Virus record (IMG/VR): IMGVR_UViG_2721755646_000007
Reading direction: 5' to 3' (one strand)
Length of the DNA: 43,137 bases
DNA from: a virus
Taxonomy: Duplodnaviria > Heunggongvirae > Uroviricota > Caudoviricetes
In this document: one piece after another, positions 3,001 to 9,000 of the stretch
Position numbering within the stretch: position 1 is the stretch's first letter
Layout of the letters: the number at the start of each line of letters is the position of its first letter
Program-made: the position numbers

Positions 3001-6000
3001 GCGCATCTCTGCCTGAATTTCGGGCCATTTGGCACCAGGCTTACATTTATGCTTAACCCACCCGATGGCATGCAGCTTAAGCTCCGGATACATAGCGTTA
3101 ACTTCTGGCATTTTCATCAACGCTTCAACGATATGGCCGTCGAATGTTGCCATGTCTTCCTGCAACAATTCCTGTGCGCTAATCACCATATCAACAGTGA
3201 TGTTTTCACATGTGTCGAACTTAACCATGACAGCGTTCTGTACTTCAGGGGCCAGGTTGTCAAAAGTGACGTTCATCGGATCGGATTCAGTCTCGACCGG
3301 GACAAAGGAAGCAGACGCCTCATCCCAGCGGTTTTCCTGCATATATTCAGCATCCCAGGAATCGAGGGCAGGGCGGGGTATACCGGGTTTATCCTCGCAA
3401 ACAAGAAATTTATAAGCGCAGTCCTGAGCAGCCGGATAATGTTCCAGGAATTGCCAGTGAAATTTTGCGCGGGCGCGACGTTCATCACCGGCTTCAATGG
3501 CAGTGGCTACAGCGACGGCACCTTCTTCCTTTATTGCCTGTTCGTCCGGAATGGCGGCGCAAATAAAGACTTTACTCATTTTGTTTTACCTCATTACAGA
3601 TTTAAGGGTGAACAAATCCCTGCCATTGCTGGCATATAAGAATGAAATCGGATGTTTATTACGGAACTGTTTTAAAGACCTGCCGGGATTTCGTTATTAT
3701 CCTGGTGAATAACTTTATCGACCGGGTAACAGTTACCGGGAATTTTCTGTTCGGTTGCTGCAGTCACACACTCCTGCATTGTCCTGTGAACACTGACTGC
3801 AATATCAACTGGCTCTCCGGAAACAAGAAAAACTGTCAGAACAAGTGCAAATGCTGTATTCATTGCCAGCATCCTTTTTGTATCGGACGTAAACGGGCCA
3901 ACATTGAAAGAATGCATATTTTATTTAATAGCTCCCGTTCGTGTTTTCTCTTGTTAATGGCATCTTCAGTAAATACAGGGTTACTGATAGTGACACCAAT
4001 TTCAAAACAACCTTCAGACGTATTAACGTTTGGTAATAACGTTTCCATTATCGCGTCCTCAACAATGAATTTTGTGATGCGGTGCCTGGTGCCTCCAGGT
4101 GACGTTAACCAGTTAACAATTAACGCCGGATACAGAGAATCCCCCCATAACACTGTTTTTGGTTTTAACTGTTCCGCGTGCGCTCAGCCGCATTCACCGC
4201 ATCACAAAATTCACTTTAAAAAGGGCGGCAGAGCAGTCACGGAGTAAAACTGATACCGCCAAACGTCACCAGAAAATTGATAACAGAGGGCGTTGCAGCG
4301 GGGTTGTCACTTAAGCGTATGGTCAACCTGACAACCCGGTGTCCTCAACGGGGGAAGGAATAACCCCTCCATACTTACCGCCGCGCCATTTCGCGGATTG
4401 CCACAACCGGAAGCGCACGGTCGACGAAAATTTAACGACAGGCTATCTATGAACCAGCTACCTCGCCGTGCGCTTTCGCGTTATGGTCTGACTTTTCAGG
4501 GAAATATCCTTTCAGTAAACTGTCAGTGCCGTATGCTCACCCGTGTCCGGCGCACGCACTCCACCTCACCCGTGGAGAACTCCTTAATTACCAACCTTAG
4601 CTTCGTTGGTTAGCTATTAACGCGGGTATGTAATCATTCTGGCAATGCTTAATGCCGCTGCTTTTTCCAGATTGGTGATATCCTGCTCCAGAGCGGACAG
4701 ATTTTCAGCCTGCTTAGCCCTGGCTTCATTGGCCCATTTCAGATCCTGCGCTGCATTAATTTTCTGGTGCATCCACTCATAAAGTTCATCATCGGTATAG
4801 TCTGGCGCGATGATGACGGGTTCTCGTTTCTGCATGTCGGCTCCTTGTGGTTAGCGTTGCCTGCTTTTAACCACGTCAGGCGAGGTGGTATCCTCTGAGG
4901 GGTCTGTTACTCGAGAGGAAATTGGTTATGAATACAATCAAGTTTTCTTGCCCAGAATGTGGTGGCGAAGTCTTTGACACATCCTTTAAGCCGCAGGGCT
5001 CTGACAGTTTCGCGGGAGCCATCTGCAAAAATTGTGGTCACCTTGTAACTGAAGATGAGTCCTCGCAGTTCGATGACGAAATCGTTGACAATATCTTCGG
5101 TGCACTCATCAGAGACTTTCTGAAGTAAAGGCGCATACCGCTTAGTTACCGCTCTGATAACTCTTACCTGTCCTGCAATGGCGCTGATGTCAATATAAAG
5201 CGCCATTGCTGCTTCTTTGCCGATCCCGGGATGCCTTCCATTCTGATGTTTGACTTCGCCCACTGAGAAACCCTCTGTTTCCCCTTAACGCCGGGGTAGC
5301 GGAACAAAAACCTGCTGCATAGTTATTAAAGTTGAACCCTGCCGTCATGTTCATACGCCTCGGGCTGGCTACTTAACCCCTGACCACTGCCGGGTAACTC
5401 GAAGTATTTCCCTGCGTTCTGTGGGGCGGGGTGGGTTGGTATTTTTAGTTTAATAAACATTAAACTTAAGTCAAGTAAAAACTAAACCGCGGGACATAAC
5501 AAACACAACGCTTTTGATAAAGTCGTTGCGGTTGTTATGTTTCTATTGGTAGTGAAAGTTAGGGAAACTGGCGTCTTGCGTGGATCACGTTTACTACTTC
5601 AACGCTTGATGTTGTTACGCGGTATAGAATTATATAGTTAGGGTGGGCTACAATCTCACGCAAGCCAGGTACTCTGTCGCTTGGTGGGTATAAATACGGA
5701 TGTTCGGATAACGGCAGCACACAACCCCTTAATCGCTGCCATAAGCGTTCAGCCGCATCTATGTCGAAACGAGCAATATAACTAGTTATATCATCTAGGT
5801 CGGTATCTGCGCTTTCAAGCCATAACACGGGTAACATTTTACTGCTTGCTCCGTTCCTTGCGCATCTTAGCAAAGCGTTCTGCCATTCTGCGCTCAACTT
5901 CGTCATGGGGAATTGCTGGGCGCGGATCTGCAAGGCTCGTTGCTACTTTCGCACGCAGCCATTCGTTGTAACTGTTTTCTTGTTCAATGGTTTCAAATTC

Positions 6001-9000
6001 AGAAACCATTGGTGAAAGGGCTCTATTCATGTTTCCTCCGGTTTTATAACTCAGGCGCGGCGGCATTTTTGCGCCGCAATCCATCTCGCTATGAGATCTT
6101 CCATTGATTCTTTTTTCTGCTTTAACTCGCTGATTATCTGGCGTTGCTCATCCTCAGGGAAGGCTGAAAAAATCTGCAATAATTCCAGTTGATTAGACGT
6201 TAACCCTGCATGTGGTGGAGAACCCCCCGGTTGTTCTGCGTATTCCGCATCCAGATACCCTTCCGGCATCCCGTATGTTTGCTCTATTCTTCTGGCAGCC
6301 TTTTCTCCAAACGAGGCTCTCCCACTCATTAGTTGAGATAGGTAGCTCTTCTCTTTGGGTGGCAGAGTTTTATCTTTAAACCACTCCTTGAGACGTAAAC
6401 GGCGAATTTCTTTTTTTTGCATGTGGTAATTATCTTTAGTAATCACTAAACAAGCAAATACTTGACTTAATGGTTTATTAAACACTAAACTCGCAAAAAA
6501 ACACTAAACCGAGGAAGGTATGACATTAAAAGAGTTTATTAAATCATTAAGGGTTGGTGATGCTAAGAAATTCGCGGCCAGACTTGGTGTATCGCCATCT
6601 TACTTATCGCAAATGGCGTCTGGACGAACAGCTATATCTCCAACCCGCGCCCTTATGATCGAATCTGCGACGGAAGGCCAAGTAAGTAGGGCGGAGCTAC
6701 GACCCCATGATTGGGAGCTTATTTGGCCTGAGTATGCGAGCGGCATTCGTTTGGGGCAAACACATGTAGTTCATGCTGAAGGTGATTGTAGTGCATGCTT
6801 ATCTGATGGAGTTGATTCATGAAAATCAAGCATGAACACATCCGCATGGCGATGAATGTCTGGGCGCATCCGGACGGCGAAAAAGTACCGGCTGCGAAAA
6901 TTACCAAAGCGTATTTCGAGCTGGGAATGACGTTCCCGGAACTGTATGACGACAGCCATCCGGAAGCCCTGGCCCGTAATACCCAGAAAATTTTCCGTTG
7001 GCTGGATAAAGACACCCCTGATGCTGTTGAAAAAATGCAGGCTCTGTTACCGGCGATCGAAAAGGCGATGCCGCCTTTGCTGGTGGCCCGTATGCGCAGC
7101 CACAGTTCTGAATATTACCGTGAGATCGTCGAACGGAGGGATCGGCTGGTGAAGGATGTCGATGATTTTGTTGCGTCAGCGGTTGTTTTGTATGACCAGA
7201 TGAATCGCGGCGGCCCGGCAGGGAATGCTGTGGTGATGCACTAAAAGCACGGTGTTCGGGGGTTTTATGAGCAGCAAGCTTCATGGTCTTGTCTGGGAAG
7301 GGTGCGCCTTCACCGGCATGATCTTATCCAGGGTGGCGGTTATGGCCCGTCTTGCAGACTACAGCAATGACGAGGGCGTGTCATGGCCTGCCATTGAAAC
7401 TATCCGGCGTCAGATCGGTGCAAGAAGTGAATCCACAGTGAAATCGGCTATTGCAGAACTGGCGAAAGAGGGCTGGCTGACGAAGGAAGAGCGTAAGGTC
7501 GGTGGGCGTAATGTAAGCAATATCTATCGGCTTAATGTGGAAAAACTCGAAGCAGCTGCTGCGGCGGCGCGTGAGTCATATAAACCGAAAAGAAAAATTA
7601 GCCCGGCAAAAAATGACCCGTTAACAGTTGACCCGTCAAATATTGCCCCCTCAACGGTTGACCCGTCAAATTTTGATGGATCAACTGTTGATAACAAACT
7701 GCCGATTAGGGGGGCGATGATTGACCCCGATCCGTCAGTATTAAAACCTGATCCGTCAGATAAAAGATCTTCTTGTCCGGACGCTTCGCAACCGGACCCG
7801 CAGACGGCTGAACAGAATTTTTTAACCCGACACCCTGACGCGGTTGTGTTCAGTGCGAAAAAACGCCAGTGGGGAAGTCAGGAAGATTTGGTGTGCGCAC
7901 AGTGGATCTGGGGACGAATCGTGAGTCTTTACGAGCAGGCGGCCAGCGATGATGGCGAGATCACGAGACCGAAAGAACCCAACTGGACTGCATGGGCCAA
8001 TGACGTGCGGACAATGCGGATGCTGGATGGCAGAACTCACAGACAAATTTGTGAAATGTTTGGGCGTCTCCAGCGGGATTCGTTCTGGGTAAAAAACATC
8101 ATGAGTCCGGCAAAACTCCGGGAAAAATGGGATGAACTGGTTATCCGCCTGGGGCGTTCGCCCGCGCAGCGTTGCGTGAATCACATTTCTGAACCGGACA
8201 CTGAAATACCGCCGGGATTCAGGGGGTGACGTGTCATGAAAAACATTGCGGCAGTTGGGGTTCTTGAACGTATTCGCAGACTTGCACCACAGGGGGCGGT
8301 TCCACCGTACCGGACGGTGGAGGAGTGGCGGGAATGGCAACTTGCTGAAGGACGAAAACGCAGCGAGGAGATTAACCGCCTGAATCATCAGGTGCGGGTT
8401 GAAAAAATCCTGAACCGTGCGGGCATCCAGCCGCTTCACAGGAAGTGCTCATTCGGGAACTACCGGGTGCAGAACGACGGTCAGCGCCATGCTCTGAGCC
8501 AGGCGAAATCCATTGCCGATGAATTGATGACCGGATGTACAAACTTCGTGTTCAGCGGTAAACCTGGTACCGGTAAAAATCACCTGGCAGCAGCGATTGG
8601 CAATCGGCTGATGGCGAAGGGGAGAAGCGTGATTATCGTCACCGTGTCCGATGTCATGAGCGTGTTGCATGACGGCTACGACAACGGCCAGTCCGGGGAA
8701 AAATTTTTACAGGAGCTTTGTGGAGTTGACCTTCTGGTCCTTGATGAAATTGGCATGCAGCGGGATACGCGCAACGAGCAGGTCACGCTGAACCAGATAG
8801 TCGACCGCAGAACGGCTTCGATGCGTAGTGTCGGAATGCTGACGAACCTGAATCACGCAGCGATGAGCACACTCCTCGGAGATCGGGTGATGGACCGTAT
8901 GACCATGAATGGTGGTCGTTGGGTGAATTTTAACTGGGAGAGCTGGCGGTCAAACGTTGGACGTCAGGGTATGTGAGAATTTTTGACGAGGTAAATTTTC

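What the first reader, a model, noticed from the sequence alone, without database searches (positions are those of the whole stretch)
5448..6510. Three-gene regulator-antitoxin-toxin cassette (PaaR/PaaA/ParE-like) occupies the immunity region between inverted operator copies
A helix-turn-helix repressor (6051..6422), a 63-aa antitoxin (5839..6030) and a ParE-family toxin (5559..5837) lie on the minus strand with a 1-nt antitoxin/toxin junction, bracketed by inverted copies of the same ~25-bp motifs (GTTTAATAAAC / CTTAAGTCAAG at 5448..5477; TACTTGACTTAA / GTTTATTAAAC at 6459..6483). This places the toxin-antitoxin pair where lambda carries rexAB and suggests the same repressor controls prophage immunity, the dicBF division inhibitors and a toxin. 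The repressor ATG has no Shine-Dalgarno and abuts the operator, consistent with a leaderless maintenance transcript.
Basis: partly seen in the sequence, partly recalled or inferred. Interest (0 to 1): 0.6.

Follow-up and report, generated by a model that had tools for sequence, protein, structure and literature searches.

The report
Known PaaR2-PaaA2-ParE2 prophage immunity cassette

Summary
The toxin (92 aa) and the antitoxin (63 aa) are 100% identical to the crystallised ParE2 and PaaA2 of E. coli O157:H7. The first 66 residues of the repressor are identical to the solved PaaR2 N-terminal domain. The DNA is 100% identical to many O157:H7 chromosomes.

Jurenas et al. 2021 (mBio, PMC8630535) already showed by experiment that:
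- PaaR2 is a CI-like repressor translated from a leaderless mRNA.
- PaaR2 and the Cro-like YdaS bind operators in the 97-bp paaR2-ydaS gap.
- A PL/OL copy lies beyond parE2, and both proteins repress it about 100-fold.
- The switch is bistable.
- The cassette is addictive.

The rexAB analogy is also in print (PMC9986795). The bracketing inverted motifs are the -35 box and operator half-sites shared by PL and PR.

That is plausible, because the downstream genes match the Qin dicBF operon in order and no terminator is predicted in between.

I add one small point. The cassette is one exchangeable immunity allele, window about 5446..6812, in a slot that other phages fill with repressor/cro pairs lacking any toxin-antitoxin genes.

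The parts
5447..5489 (-). PL933P promoter with OL operators. The -35 TTGACT is at 5474..5469 and the -10 TAAACT at 5452..5447. GTTTA(A/T)TAA-type half-sites overlap the promoter.
   Evidence: The promoter scan finds the same hexamers as at PR. The alignment to the OR region matches TACTTGACTTAA, GTTTA and TAAACT. Half-site matches are at 5448-5458. Published: PL933P has -35/-10 identical to PR933P and three operators, and is repressed about 100-fold by PaaR2 and YdaS (PMC8630535).
5494..5540 (-). Strong hairpin just downstream of the parE2 stop and just upstream of the PL -35. It is the likely terminator or insulator of the paaR2-paaA2-parE2 transcript (inferred).
   Evidence: Inverted repeat with 22-nt arms, 82% complementary. 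The RNA fold gives -24 kcal/mol, z = -4.16, with 1 of 200 shuffles as good. The simple terminator scan did not call it because no T-run follows immediately.
5559..5837 (-). parE2, the ParE-family toxin (92 aa)
   Evidence: Pfam ParE_toxin E 1.9e-16, full-length profile match. It is 92/92 identical to PDB 5cw7_B/5cze.
5839..6030 (-). paaA2, the antitoxin (63 aa), which has no DNA-binding domain
   Evidence: Pfam PF21217 PaaA2 E 1e-19. Residues 2-63 are identical to PDB 3zbe_A, 5cw7 and 5cze. A GGAGG Shine-Dalgarno lies upstream and 1 nt separates it from the parE2 ATG.
6051..6422 (-). paaR2, the CI-analogous immunity repressor (123 aa), translated from a leaderless mRNA. It has an N-terminal DNA-binding domain and a C-terminal DicA-like domain.
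   Evidence: Residues 1-66 are identical to PDB 7nkv/8c3k, 'Phage repressor protein CI'. PHROG transcriptional regulator 6.9e-39. The C-terminal residues 72-119 match the NCBIfam DicA profile at 1.4e-6, below its cut-off, and align to K-12 DicA at 29% identity. The N-terminus MQKKE equals the published N-terminal sequence.
6423..6519 (.). The 97-bp OR region holding divergent PRM933P and PR933P. The PRM -10 GATAAT is at 6434..6429 on the minus strand, with its start point on the paaR2 ATG. For PR, the -35 TTGACT is at 6462..6467 and the -10 TAAACT at 6486..6491, plus strand. The region also holds the palindromic IRs and the CACTAAAC direct repeats.
   Evidence: The length of 97 bp equals the published value. 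Promoter scan. The direct-repeat family is at 6438, 6477 and 6496, and the half-sites at 6434-6451 and 6473-6483. Published DNase I footprints cover 78 bp for PaaR2 and 65 bp for YdaS.
6520..6822 (+). ydaS, the Cro analogue (100 aa, HTH)
   Evidence: Pfam YdaS_toxin 3.3e-12 and HTH_3 6e-07. Published as a Cro analogue that competes with PaaR2.
6812..6829 (+). YdaT operator OM, TTGATTCATGAAAATCAA, at the ydaS/ydaT junction where PRE933P lies. It is also the right-hand edge of the exchangeable immunity module.
   Evidence: This is the only exact match in the window to the published YdaT site TTGATTN6AATCAA (PMC9986795). Homology to other prophages resumes at 6813/6814.
6819..7244 (+). ydaT, the CII analogue (141 aa)
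   Evidence: Pfam YdaT_toxin 2.8e-10. Published as the activator of PRE933P, with structure and operator in PMC9986795.
3860..4835 (-). ydfC (4617..4835), dicF sRNA (4223..4274) and dicB (3860..4048). These are the division-inhibitor genes downstream of PL in the same orientation. Their control from PL is inferred, not shown.
   Evidence: Rfam DicF 76.7 bits against a gathering score of 48. Pfam DicB 6.2e-37. The stretch is nearly identical to the K-12 Qin ydfC-dicF-dicB region, judged by eye from the conservation line. No minus-strand intrinsic terminator is predicted between 5447 and 3860.

Best explanation
This is the paaR2-paaA2-parE2 ('RAE2') operon, embedded in the immunity region of the lambdoid cryptic prophage CP-933P/Sp12 of E. 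coli O157:H7.

Shown in the literature for this exact sequence:
- PaaR2 plays the part of lambda CI. It is made from a leaderless transcript that starts at its ATG (PRM933P).
- PaaR2 binds repeated sites in the 97-bp OR region and a second set (OL) beyond parE2.
- At low level it activates PRM. It represses the rightward promoter PR (ydaS-ydaT, the Cro and CII analogues) and the leftward promoter PL.
- YdaS competes for the same sites, which gives two heritable expression states.
- YdaT binds TTGATTN6AATCAA at the ydaS/ydaT junction and turns on PRE, a second route to paaR2-paaA2-parE2 expression.
- paaA2 and parE2 are co-transcribed with the repressor, in the position lambda gives to rexAB.
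- PaaA2 has no DNA-binding domain. It neutralises ParE2 by direct binding and is degraded by ClpAP/ClpXP.
- Loss of the cassette therefore frees ParE2, which associates with the nucleoid and induces SOS, and kills the cell (post-segregational killing).

Inferred here:
- The cassette, window about 5446..6812, is one exchangeable immunity allele in a conserved slot. The toxin-antitoxin pair would penalise its replacement or loss.
- The hairpin at 5494..5540 ends the operon before PL.
- PL transcripts probably run on into ydfC-dicF-dicB.
For: Identity to characterised molecules:
- ParE2 is 92/92 identical to PDB 5cw7_B.
- PaaA2 residues 2-63 are identical to 3zbe_A.
- PaaR2 residues 1-66 are identical to 7nkv_A.
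- Window 5300-7300 is 100% identical to many O157:H7 chromosomes.
- Window 1-13300 is identical to NZ_CP018241.1.

Family hits: ParE_toxin, PaaA2, YdaS, YdaT and DicB.

Anatomy that matches the paper:
- The intergenic gap is 97 bp, the N-terminus is MQKKE, and a GATAAT -10 places the start point on the ATG.
- PL and PR have identical hexamers.
- The YdaT site is exact at 6812..6829.

Published experiments (PMC8630535): 5' RACE, N-terminal sequencing, EMSA, DNase I footprints, GFP reporters for PRM, PR, PL and PRE, single-cell bistability, and mini-F stabilisation.

Module boundaries:
- L004 shares window 5278-5445 and 6813-7400 at 98.8-100% identity.
- L008 shares window 4800-5433 and 6814-7233 at 87-97% identity.
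- Between those flanks both carry other repressor/cro pairs and no toxin-antitoxin genes.
Against: Nothing contradicts the identification. The weak points concern biological role.
- The published single-cell work saw no ParE2 activity in either transcriptional state.
- The molecular target of ParE2 is still unknown.
- The 'protects the immunity allele' role is a hypothesis.
- Transcription from PL into dicF/dicB has not been measured. YdaS also represses PL, so PL may be off in both stable states.
- PaaR2 has no Pfam HTH hit.
Confidence: 0.96

Rival explanations
1. The toxin-antitoxin pair is mainly an anti-phage, abortive-infection or exclusion device. It would be a functional replacement for lambda RexAB, triggered by superinfecting phage rather than by loss of the cassette.
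For: It sits exactly where lambda carries rexAB and is co-transcribed with the repressor. Prophage-borne toxin-antitoxin pairs often defend against phage (general knowledge, not tested here). Neighbouring DicB is reported to block phages that use ManXYZ (paper title; discussion text of PMC10448788).
Against: None of the three proteins hits any PADLOC defence model. No phage-challenge data appear in the papers read. The demonstrated phenotype is post-segregational killing.
Confidence: 0.12
2. An autonomous three-component toxin-antitoxin system whose regulator merely serves the toxin-antitoxin pair as a 'split antitoxin'. It would lie next to, but not be part of, the prophage immunity switch.
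For: This was the original 2010 view of paaR-paaA-parE as a tripartite toxin-antitoxin system (as summarised). In strain 2013C-4974 a related pair has its own extra HTH regulator between a PaaR2-like gene and paaA.
Against: PaaR2 sites overlap PR and PL, and PaaR2 represses ydaS-ydaT and PL. paaR2 is leaderless and divergent from a cro analogue across a 97-bp operator region. The homology breaks that define the immunity allele enclose paaR2, the toxin-antitoxin pair, OR and ydaS together.
Confidence: 0.02
3. The toxin-antitoxin pair is a selfish hitch-hiker with no present benefit to prophage or host. The bracketing repeats matter only for immunity, not for the toxin.
For: No ParE2 activity was detected in either state. 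Many phages fill the same slot with alleles that lack a toxin-antitoxin pair.
Against: The cassette is conserved at 98.7-100% identity in the full-length hits listed, and 594 of 5426 complete E. coli genomes carry it over at least 80% of its length. It also occurs in a deposited phage genome, Evi. It stabilises an unstable mini-F as well as ccdAB does.
Confidence: 0.15

Closest known systems
paaR2-paaA2-parE2 (RAE2) with ydaS-ydaT in cryptic prophage CP-933P (EDL933) / Sp12 (Sakai) of E. coli O157:H7. Sources: Hallez et al. 2010 as cited in PMC8630535; Jurenas et al. 2021, PMC8630535; Prolic-Kalinsek et al. 2023, PMC9986795; PDB 3zbe, 5cw7, 5cze, 5czf, 7nkv, 8c3k, 8c3l.
   Same: It is the same locus. 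The proteins are identical and the DNA is identical to O157:H7 chromosomes. The 97-bp gap, the leaderless start, the PL/PR hexamers and the YdaT operator all match.
   Different: Nothing differs within the finding's coordinates. The window diverges from the compared O157 strain only far away, beyond about 33430 in the tail genes.
Bacteriophage lambda immunity region (OL/PL - rexB - rexA - cI - PRM/OR/PR - cro - cII)
   Same: The layout and logic are the same: a leaderless repressor gene, divergent PRM and PR, a second operator set at PL, accessory genes co-transcribed downstream of the repressor, and Cro and CII analogues to the right.
   Different: There is no sequence homology to CI. PaaR2 is 123 aa and has no S24 peptidase/autocleavage domain, with no Pfam hit at all. 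The paper reports it does not respond to mitomycin C. The published operator scheme has four 18-bp palindromes plus pseudo-symmetric operators, rather than three OR sites. The accessory genes are a ParE-type toxin-antitoxin pair, not RexAB.
Qin prophage dicA-dicC switch and the dicBF operon of E. coli K-12
   Same: The arrangement is syntenic: repressor, then leftward promoter, then ydfC-dicF-dicB-ydfD, and the ydfC-dicB DNA is nearly identical. The PaaR2 C-terminal domain is homologous to that of DicA. In Qin, the repressor DicA controls dicBp, and the switch with DicC is bistable (PMC10448788).
   Different: Qin has no toxin-antitoxin pair between dicA and dicBp. The N-terminal DNA-binding domains and the operators differ. 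Qin has ydfA-ydfB after the promoter, where this locus has about 610 bp of different sequence. Control of dicBF by PaaR2 is untested.
The related paaR-paaA-parE cassette in other E. coli prophages, such as strain 2013C-4974 (the CP-933M homologue paaR1-paaA1-parE1 is mentioned in PMC8630535)
   Same: The paaA-parE pair is about 80-85% identical at the DNA level, lies downstream of a PaaR2-like repressor (74% aa identity), and is followed by a PL-like region and dicB.
   Different: That locus has a fourth gene between the PaaR2-like gene and paaA. It is a 153-aa HTH regulator that shares only the C-terminal domain with PaaR2, at 52% identity. I did not verify that it equals the published PaaR1.
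Classical two-gene ParD-ParE type II toxin-antitoxin systems (for example PDB 3kxe, Caulobacter ParE1)
   Same: The toxin has the ParE fold (Pfam hit; distant PDB hits 3kxe, 6x0a and 5ceg). The antitoxin gene lies upstream and abuts the toxin gene.
   Different: The antitoxin has no DNA-binding domain. Transcriptional control is handed to a separate repressor that is also the prophage immunity repressor.

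Membership tests
ParE toxin family (type II toxin-antitoxin) | Sequence matches the ParE/RelE-fold family profile above the curated threshold | tested here: met
   Pfam PF05016 ParE_toxin scores 60.9 bits against a cut-off of 23, with profile positions 1-89 of 89 matched. The protein is 100% identical to the solved ParE2 structure 5cw7_B.
ParE toxin family (type II toxin-antitoxin) | Toxic on expression and neutralised by the cognate antitoxin | not testable with these tools
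   Reported for this exact protein: SOS induction, nucleoid association, and post-segregational killing dependent on ClpAP/ClpXP (PMC8630535). The molecular target is still unknown.
PaaA2-type antitoxin | Small protein with the PaaA2 toxin-binding motif and no DNA-binding domain, encoded immediately upstream of parE | tested here: met
   Pfam PF21217 PaaA2 scores 70.7 bits against a cut-off of 27 and is the only Pfam hit. The protein is identical to PDB 3zbe_A. A 1-nt spacer separates it from parE2.
Three-component paaR-paaA-parE operon | A regulator gene comes first, followed by the antitoxin and toxin genes on one strand with short gaps | tested here: met
   The gene order is 6422->5559 on the minus strand, with gaps of 20 nt and 1 nt. 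The regulator is identical to the PaaR2 N-terminal domain structures 7nkv/8c3k.
Three-component paaR-paaA-parE operon | The regulator carries a recognisable helix-turn-helix domain | tested here: inconclusive
   There is no Pfam hit at E <= 0.01. PHROG families labelled 'transcriptional regulator/repressor' do hit. The HTH is supported by the published HHpred result, DNA footprints and deposited structures. I did not inspect the fold myself.
Lambda-type immunity region (functional class) | Divergent repressor and cro genes across a short operator region, plus a second copy of promoter and operators on the far side of the repressor operon | tested here: met
   The gap is 97 bp and holds PRM and PR. 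The same -35 and -10 hexamers (TTGACT and TAAACT) occur at 5474..5447 on the minus strand and 6462..6491 on the plus strand. The inverted 12-mer and 11-mer exceed chance.
Lambda-type immunity region (functional class) | The repressor binds both operator sets and represses PR and PL; the maintenance transcript is leaderless | not testable with these tools
   Published for this sequence: EMSA, DNase I footprints, GFP reporters, 5' RACE and N-terminal sequencing. The sequence agrees, with no Shine-Dalgarno and a -10 box 7 nt from the ATG.
Lambda CI / LexA-type repressor family (homology) | C-terminal S24 peptidase domain for RecA-stimulated autocleavage | tested here: not met
   The protein is 123 aa with no Peptidase_S24 or any other Pfam hit. 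Its C-terminus resembles DicA instead. The paper states that it lacks the peptidase motif. It works like CI but is not a CI-family member.
dicBF division-inhibitor operon under immunity-repressor control (as in Qin) | DicF sRNA and DicB lie downstream of the leftward promoter in the same orientation | tested here: met
   Rfam DicF scores 76.7 bits at 4223..4274 on the minus strand. Pfam DicB gives 6.2e-37. The region is nearly identical to Qin from ydfC onward.
dicBF division-inhibitor operon under immunity-repressor control (as in Qin) | dicF and dicB are transcribed from the repressor-controlled promoter | not testable with these tools
   There is only indirect support. No minus-strand intrinsic terminator is predicted between 5447 and 3860. 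The paper did not examine this.
Known anti-phage defence systems (Rex-like or abortive infection) | A match to a curated defence-system protein model | tested here: not met
   None of the three proteins hits PADLOC at E <= 0.01.

The most novel reading that the evidence does not exclude
The PaaR2/YdaS epigenetic switch may also gate the ydfC-dicF-dicB operon through PL933P. The two heritable states of this prophage, or transitions between them, would then give subpopulations of enterohaemorrhagic E. coli with different DicF/DicB output, affecting cell division, DicB-mediated phage resistance and DicF-dependent regulation. Meanwhile the embedded toxin-antitoxin pair would lock this particular immunity allele into a slot that otherwise recombines freely. 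Neither link has been measured.
Probability: 0.25. Interest if true: 0.4.

Novelty: already known. Interest (0 to 1): 0.08.

Why it matters
As a discovery it does not matter. The locus, its regulation, its structures and even the rexAB analogy are published. It is useful as a positive control for the scan, because a reader working from raw sequence reconstructed a three-component toxin-antitoxin system, a leaderless CI-like repressor and the OL/OR pair correctly.

Two small open points are worth a bench test. The first is whether PL933P really feeds dicF/dicB in O157:H7. The second is whether the toxin-antitoxin pair protects this immunity allele from replacement through the conserved flanks mapped here (window about 5445/5446 and 6812/6813).

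Tried and rejected
- Pfam on PaaR2 gave no hit, so 'HTH_XRE' cannot be asserted from Pfam. NCBIfam gave only a sub-threshold match to the DicA C-terminus.
- PADLOC on all three proteins gave nothing, so I did not file the cassette as a defence system.
- The published half-site GTTTAGTAA with one mismatch is not significantly enriched over the whole window: 12 matches against 6.5 expected, and 3 of 100 shuffles reach 12. However, 7 of the 12 matches fall in the two operator zones or the first codons of ydaS.
- The simple terminator scan found no minus-strand terminator after parE2. The hairpin at 5494..5540 emerged only from the repeat search and folding, and it lacks an adjacent T-run, so 'terminator' remains an inference.
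- I considered the 'autonomous split-antitoxin system' reading and rejected it on the operator sharing and the module boundaries.
- I considered that the repeats might be attachment or recombination sites flanking an inserted toxin-antitoxin pair. I rejected this because they coincide with promoter hexamers and published operators, and because the homology breaks lie outside them.
- Two Python calls failed because loci are bundled in shared FASTA files. This was solved.
- The large protein-database searches, structure prediction and fold search were not used. Identity to solved structures made them unnecessary.

Full report
**Observation**

Window 5200-6800 was read directly and all ORFs were listed.
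- 5839..6030, 63 aa.
- 6051..6422, 123 aa.

On the minus strand the antitoxin/toxin junction reads TAA-A-ATG. paaR2 and paaA2 are 20 nt apart, with a GGAGG ahead of paaA2. The paaR2 ATG has no Shine-Dalgarno, and a GATAAT hexamer sits at -12..-7 from the A of the ATG.

The bracketing motifs are real. TTAAGTCAAGTA (5466-5477) is the exact reverse complement of 6459-6470. GTTTAATAAAC (5448-5458) is the exact reverse complement of 6473-6483. Region 5300-6700 holds 7 inverted 11-mer pairs, against 0.79 expected in dinucleotide shuffles, and only 0.2% of 500 shuffles reach that number.

**What the motifs are**

A consensus scan finds the same promoter hexamers at both sites, facing outward. TTGACT-16-TAAACT lies at 5474..5447 on the minus strand. 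TTGACT-18-TAAACT lies at 6462..6491 on the plus strand. Aligning the reverse complement of the left site to the right site matches TTTAGT, TACTTGACTTAA, GTTTA and TAAACT in order. The 'inverted operator copies' are therefore a duplicated promoter-plus-operator unit, the equivalents of lambda PL/OL and PR/OR.

**Identity of the genes**

- The 92-aa protein hits Pfam ParE_toxin over the full profile (E 1.9e-16). It is 92/92 identical to PDB 5cw7_B.
- The 63-aa protein hits Pfam PaaA2 (E 1e-19). It is identical to PDB 3zbe_A.
- The 123-aa protein has no Pfam hit. Its first 66 residues are identical to PDB 7nkv/8c3k, deposited as 'Phage repressor protein CI'.
- The C-terminal third of that protein resembles DicA: NCBIfam 1.4e-6, below the cut-off, and 29% identity to K-12 DicA.
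- Divergent from it on the plus strand are a YdaS-type HTH protein (6520..6822) and a YdaT-type protein (6819..7244).
- Window 5300-7300 is 100% identical to many E. coli O157:H7 chromosomes. Window 1-13300 is base-for-base identical to NZ_CP018241.1, where the element lies beside ynfA/ynfB.

**What is already published**

Jurenas et al. 2021 (PMC8630535) studied this very sequence, the paaR2-paaA2-parE2 operon of cryptic prophage CP-933P. They report the following.
- The locus occupies the immunity region.
- The paaR2-ydaS gap is 97 bp, which matches window 6423..6519.
- 5' RACE puts the PRM933P start on the paaR2 start codon. N-terminal sequencing gives MQKKE, which matches the window ORF.
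- PaaR2 protects about 78 bp of the gap and YdaS about 65 bp.
- There are four 18-bp palindromes with the half-site GTTTAGTAA, plus three pseudo-symmetric operators.
- Low PaaR2 activates PRM and represses PR.
[quoted passage not shown] Both PaaR2 and YdaS repress it about 100-fold.
- YdaT activates a PRE promoter between ydaS and ydaT.
- The locus is bistable and heritable.
- The region stabilises a mini-F plasmid as well as ccdAB does.

Prolic-Kalinsek et al. 2023 (PMC9986795) define the YdaT site as TTGATTN6AATCAA. [quoted passage not shown] The window's only exact match to that site is at 6812..6829, at the ydaS/ydaT junction.

**The one claim not in print: dicBF**

[quoted passage not shown] It mentions dicB only as a neighbouring feature and never mentions dicF. 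In this window:
- DicF is at 4223..4274 on the minus strand (Rfam 76.7 bits).
- dicB is at 3860..4048 (Pfam 6.2e-37).
- ydfC is at 4617..4835.
- From the ydfC start codon onward the sequence is nearly identical to the K-12 Qin dicBF operon. The roughly 610 bp between PL and ydfC differ from Qin's ydfA-ydfB.
- No minus-strand intrinsic terminator is predicted between 5447 and 3860.

In Qin, the repressor DicA controls dicBp, and DicF is processed from the polycistronic transcript (PMC10448788). Control of dicF/dicB from PL933P is therefore a reasonable inference, but it has not been measured. YdaS also represses PL, so PL could be shut in both stable states.

1. A strong hairpin at 5494..5540 lies between the parE2 stop and the PL -35 box (-24 kcal/mol, z = -4.2). 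It probably ends the operon. It has no adjacent T-run, so this is inferred.

2. The cassette is one allele of an exchangeable immunity slot.
   - E. coli 54214 (L004) matches window 5278-5445 at 98.8% and 6813-7400 at 100%. Its YdaT protein is identical. Between those flanks it carries a LexA-family repressor and a Cro, with no toxin-antitoxin pair.
   - Phage vB_EcoS-640R1 (L008) matches 4800-5433 and 6814-7233. Between them it carries cI and DicC.
   - The left break falls at the PL start point. The right break falls at the YdaT operator.

3. Distribution. 594 of 5426 complete E. coli genomes carry the whole cassette. About 1100 more match only the first 60 or so bases past PL.

4. Only one of 50,697 deposited phage records, Escherichia phage Evi, carries the cassette. 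The match is 98.3% identical, and kil rather than dicB lies downstream.

These boundaries fit the published suggestion that the toxin-antitoxin pair penalises replacement of the immunity region by recombination. They do not prove it.

**Rival readings**

- A Rex-like anti-phage role is not excluded but has no support. There are no PADLOC hits, and no ParE2 activity was seen in either state.
- The 'autonomous split-antitoxin' reading is refuted by the shared operators and by the module boundaries.
- PaaR2 works like CI but is not a CI/LexA-family member. It has no S24 peptidase domain and a DicA-like C-terminus.

**Verdict**

The locus is already known, and interest is low. The residual open items are PL-to-dicBF transcription, the allele-locking role, and any defence role.

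Noticed in passing
window 5446..6812 (flanks 5278-5445 and 6813-7400): Other prophages and phages share the flanks at 87-100% identity. Between them they carry different repressor/cro pairs and no toxin-antitoxin genes (L004: LexA-family CI plus Cro; L008: cI plus DicC). The breaks fall at the PL start point and at the YdaT operator, so the toxin-antitoxin pair lies inside an exchangeable immunity allele.
   Followed up: yes
L003 3437..4300 (E. coli 2013C-4974, NZ_CP027587.1): This is a four-gene variant. A PaaR2-like 123-aa gene (74% identity) is followed by an extra 153-aa HTH regulator, then paaA-parE at about 80-85% DNA identity. The extra regulator shares only the C-terminal domain with PaaR2 (52% identity). 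Two tandem repressor-like genes upstream of the toxin-antitoxin pair have not been explained.
   Followed up: partly
window ~6531..6535 (L005, strains 472 and AUSMDU00002545): In two genomes an IS1203 element is inserted in the first codons of ydaS, the Cro analogue. The rest of the cassette stays 100% identical. This should lock the switch in the PaaR2-on state.
   Followed up: partly
window 4907..5206 (-) and 4922..5128 (+): Two ORFs overlap antisense between PL and ydfC. One is a plus-strand 68-aa zinc-ribbon protein with two CxxC motifs, which RefSeq calls 'ECs_2282 family'. The other is a minus-strand 99-aa ORF (phrog_21318, 3.4e-66), which phage records annotate instead. Only one is likely real. 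If it is the plus-strand gene, PL transcription would run antisense to it.
   Followed up: partly
window 5494..5540: A hairpin with 22-nt arms lies between the parE2 stop and the PL -35 box (-24 kcal/mol, z -4.2). It is not called by the simple terminator scan and was not found in a word search of the 2021 paper ('terminator' occurs 0 times).
   Followed up: partly
window 11120..11444: The prophage holds a second, type I toxin-antitoxin system: an Rfam sok match (116.9 bits, 11120..11294) next to an annotated hokD gene (about 11289..11444).
   Followed up: no
window 14210..14456 and 15234..15406: Three tRNA genes, annotated as Ile, Arg and Arg in the matching genome, lie downstream of the Q antiterminator gene. 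An STnc100 sRNA match (101.8 bits) follows them.
   Followed up: no
window ~19253..19822: A gene annotated as 'phage antirepressor N-terminal domain' lies inside the lysis cassette. PaaR2 lacks an autocleavage domain, and Qin's DicA is relieved by the antirepressor Rem, so this is a candidate inducer of the PaaR2 switch.
   Followed up: no
window 67..749, and the region beyond ~33430: The integrase gene is frameshifted and truncated in the matching RefSeq annotation, consistent with a cryptic prophage. The window is identical to strain 319 over 1..13300 and colinear with it to about 33430. It then diverges in the tail-fibre region, and there is 162-bp repeat variation around 27692-28122.
   Followed up: partly
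L007 (Escherichia phage Evi, LR597642.1): A deposited 40-kb phage genome carries the whole paaR2-paaA2-parE2-ydaS-ydaT region at 96-98% identity. parE2 is left unannotated there, and kil rather than dicF/dicB lies downstream of PL.
   Followed up: partly
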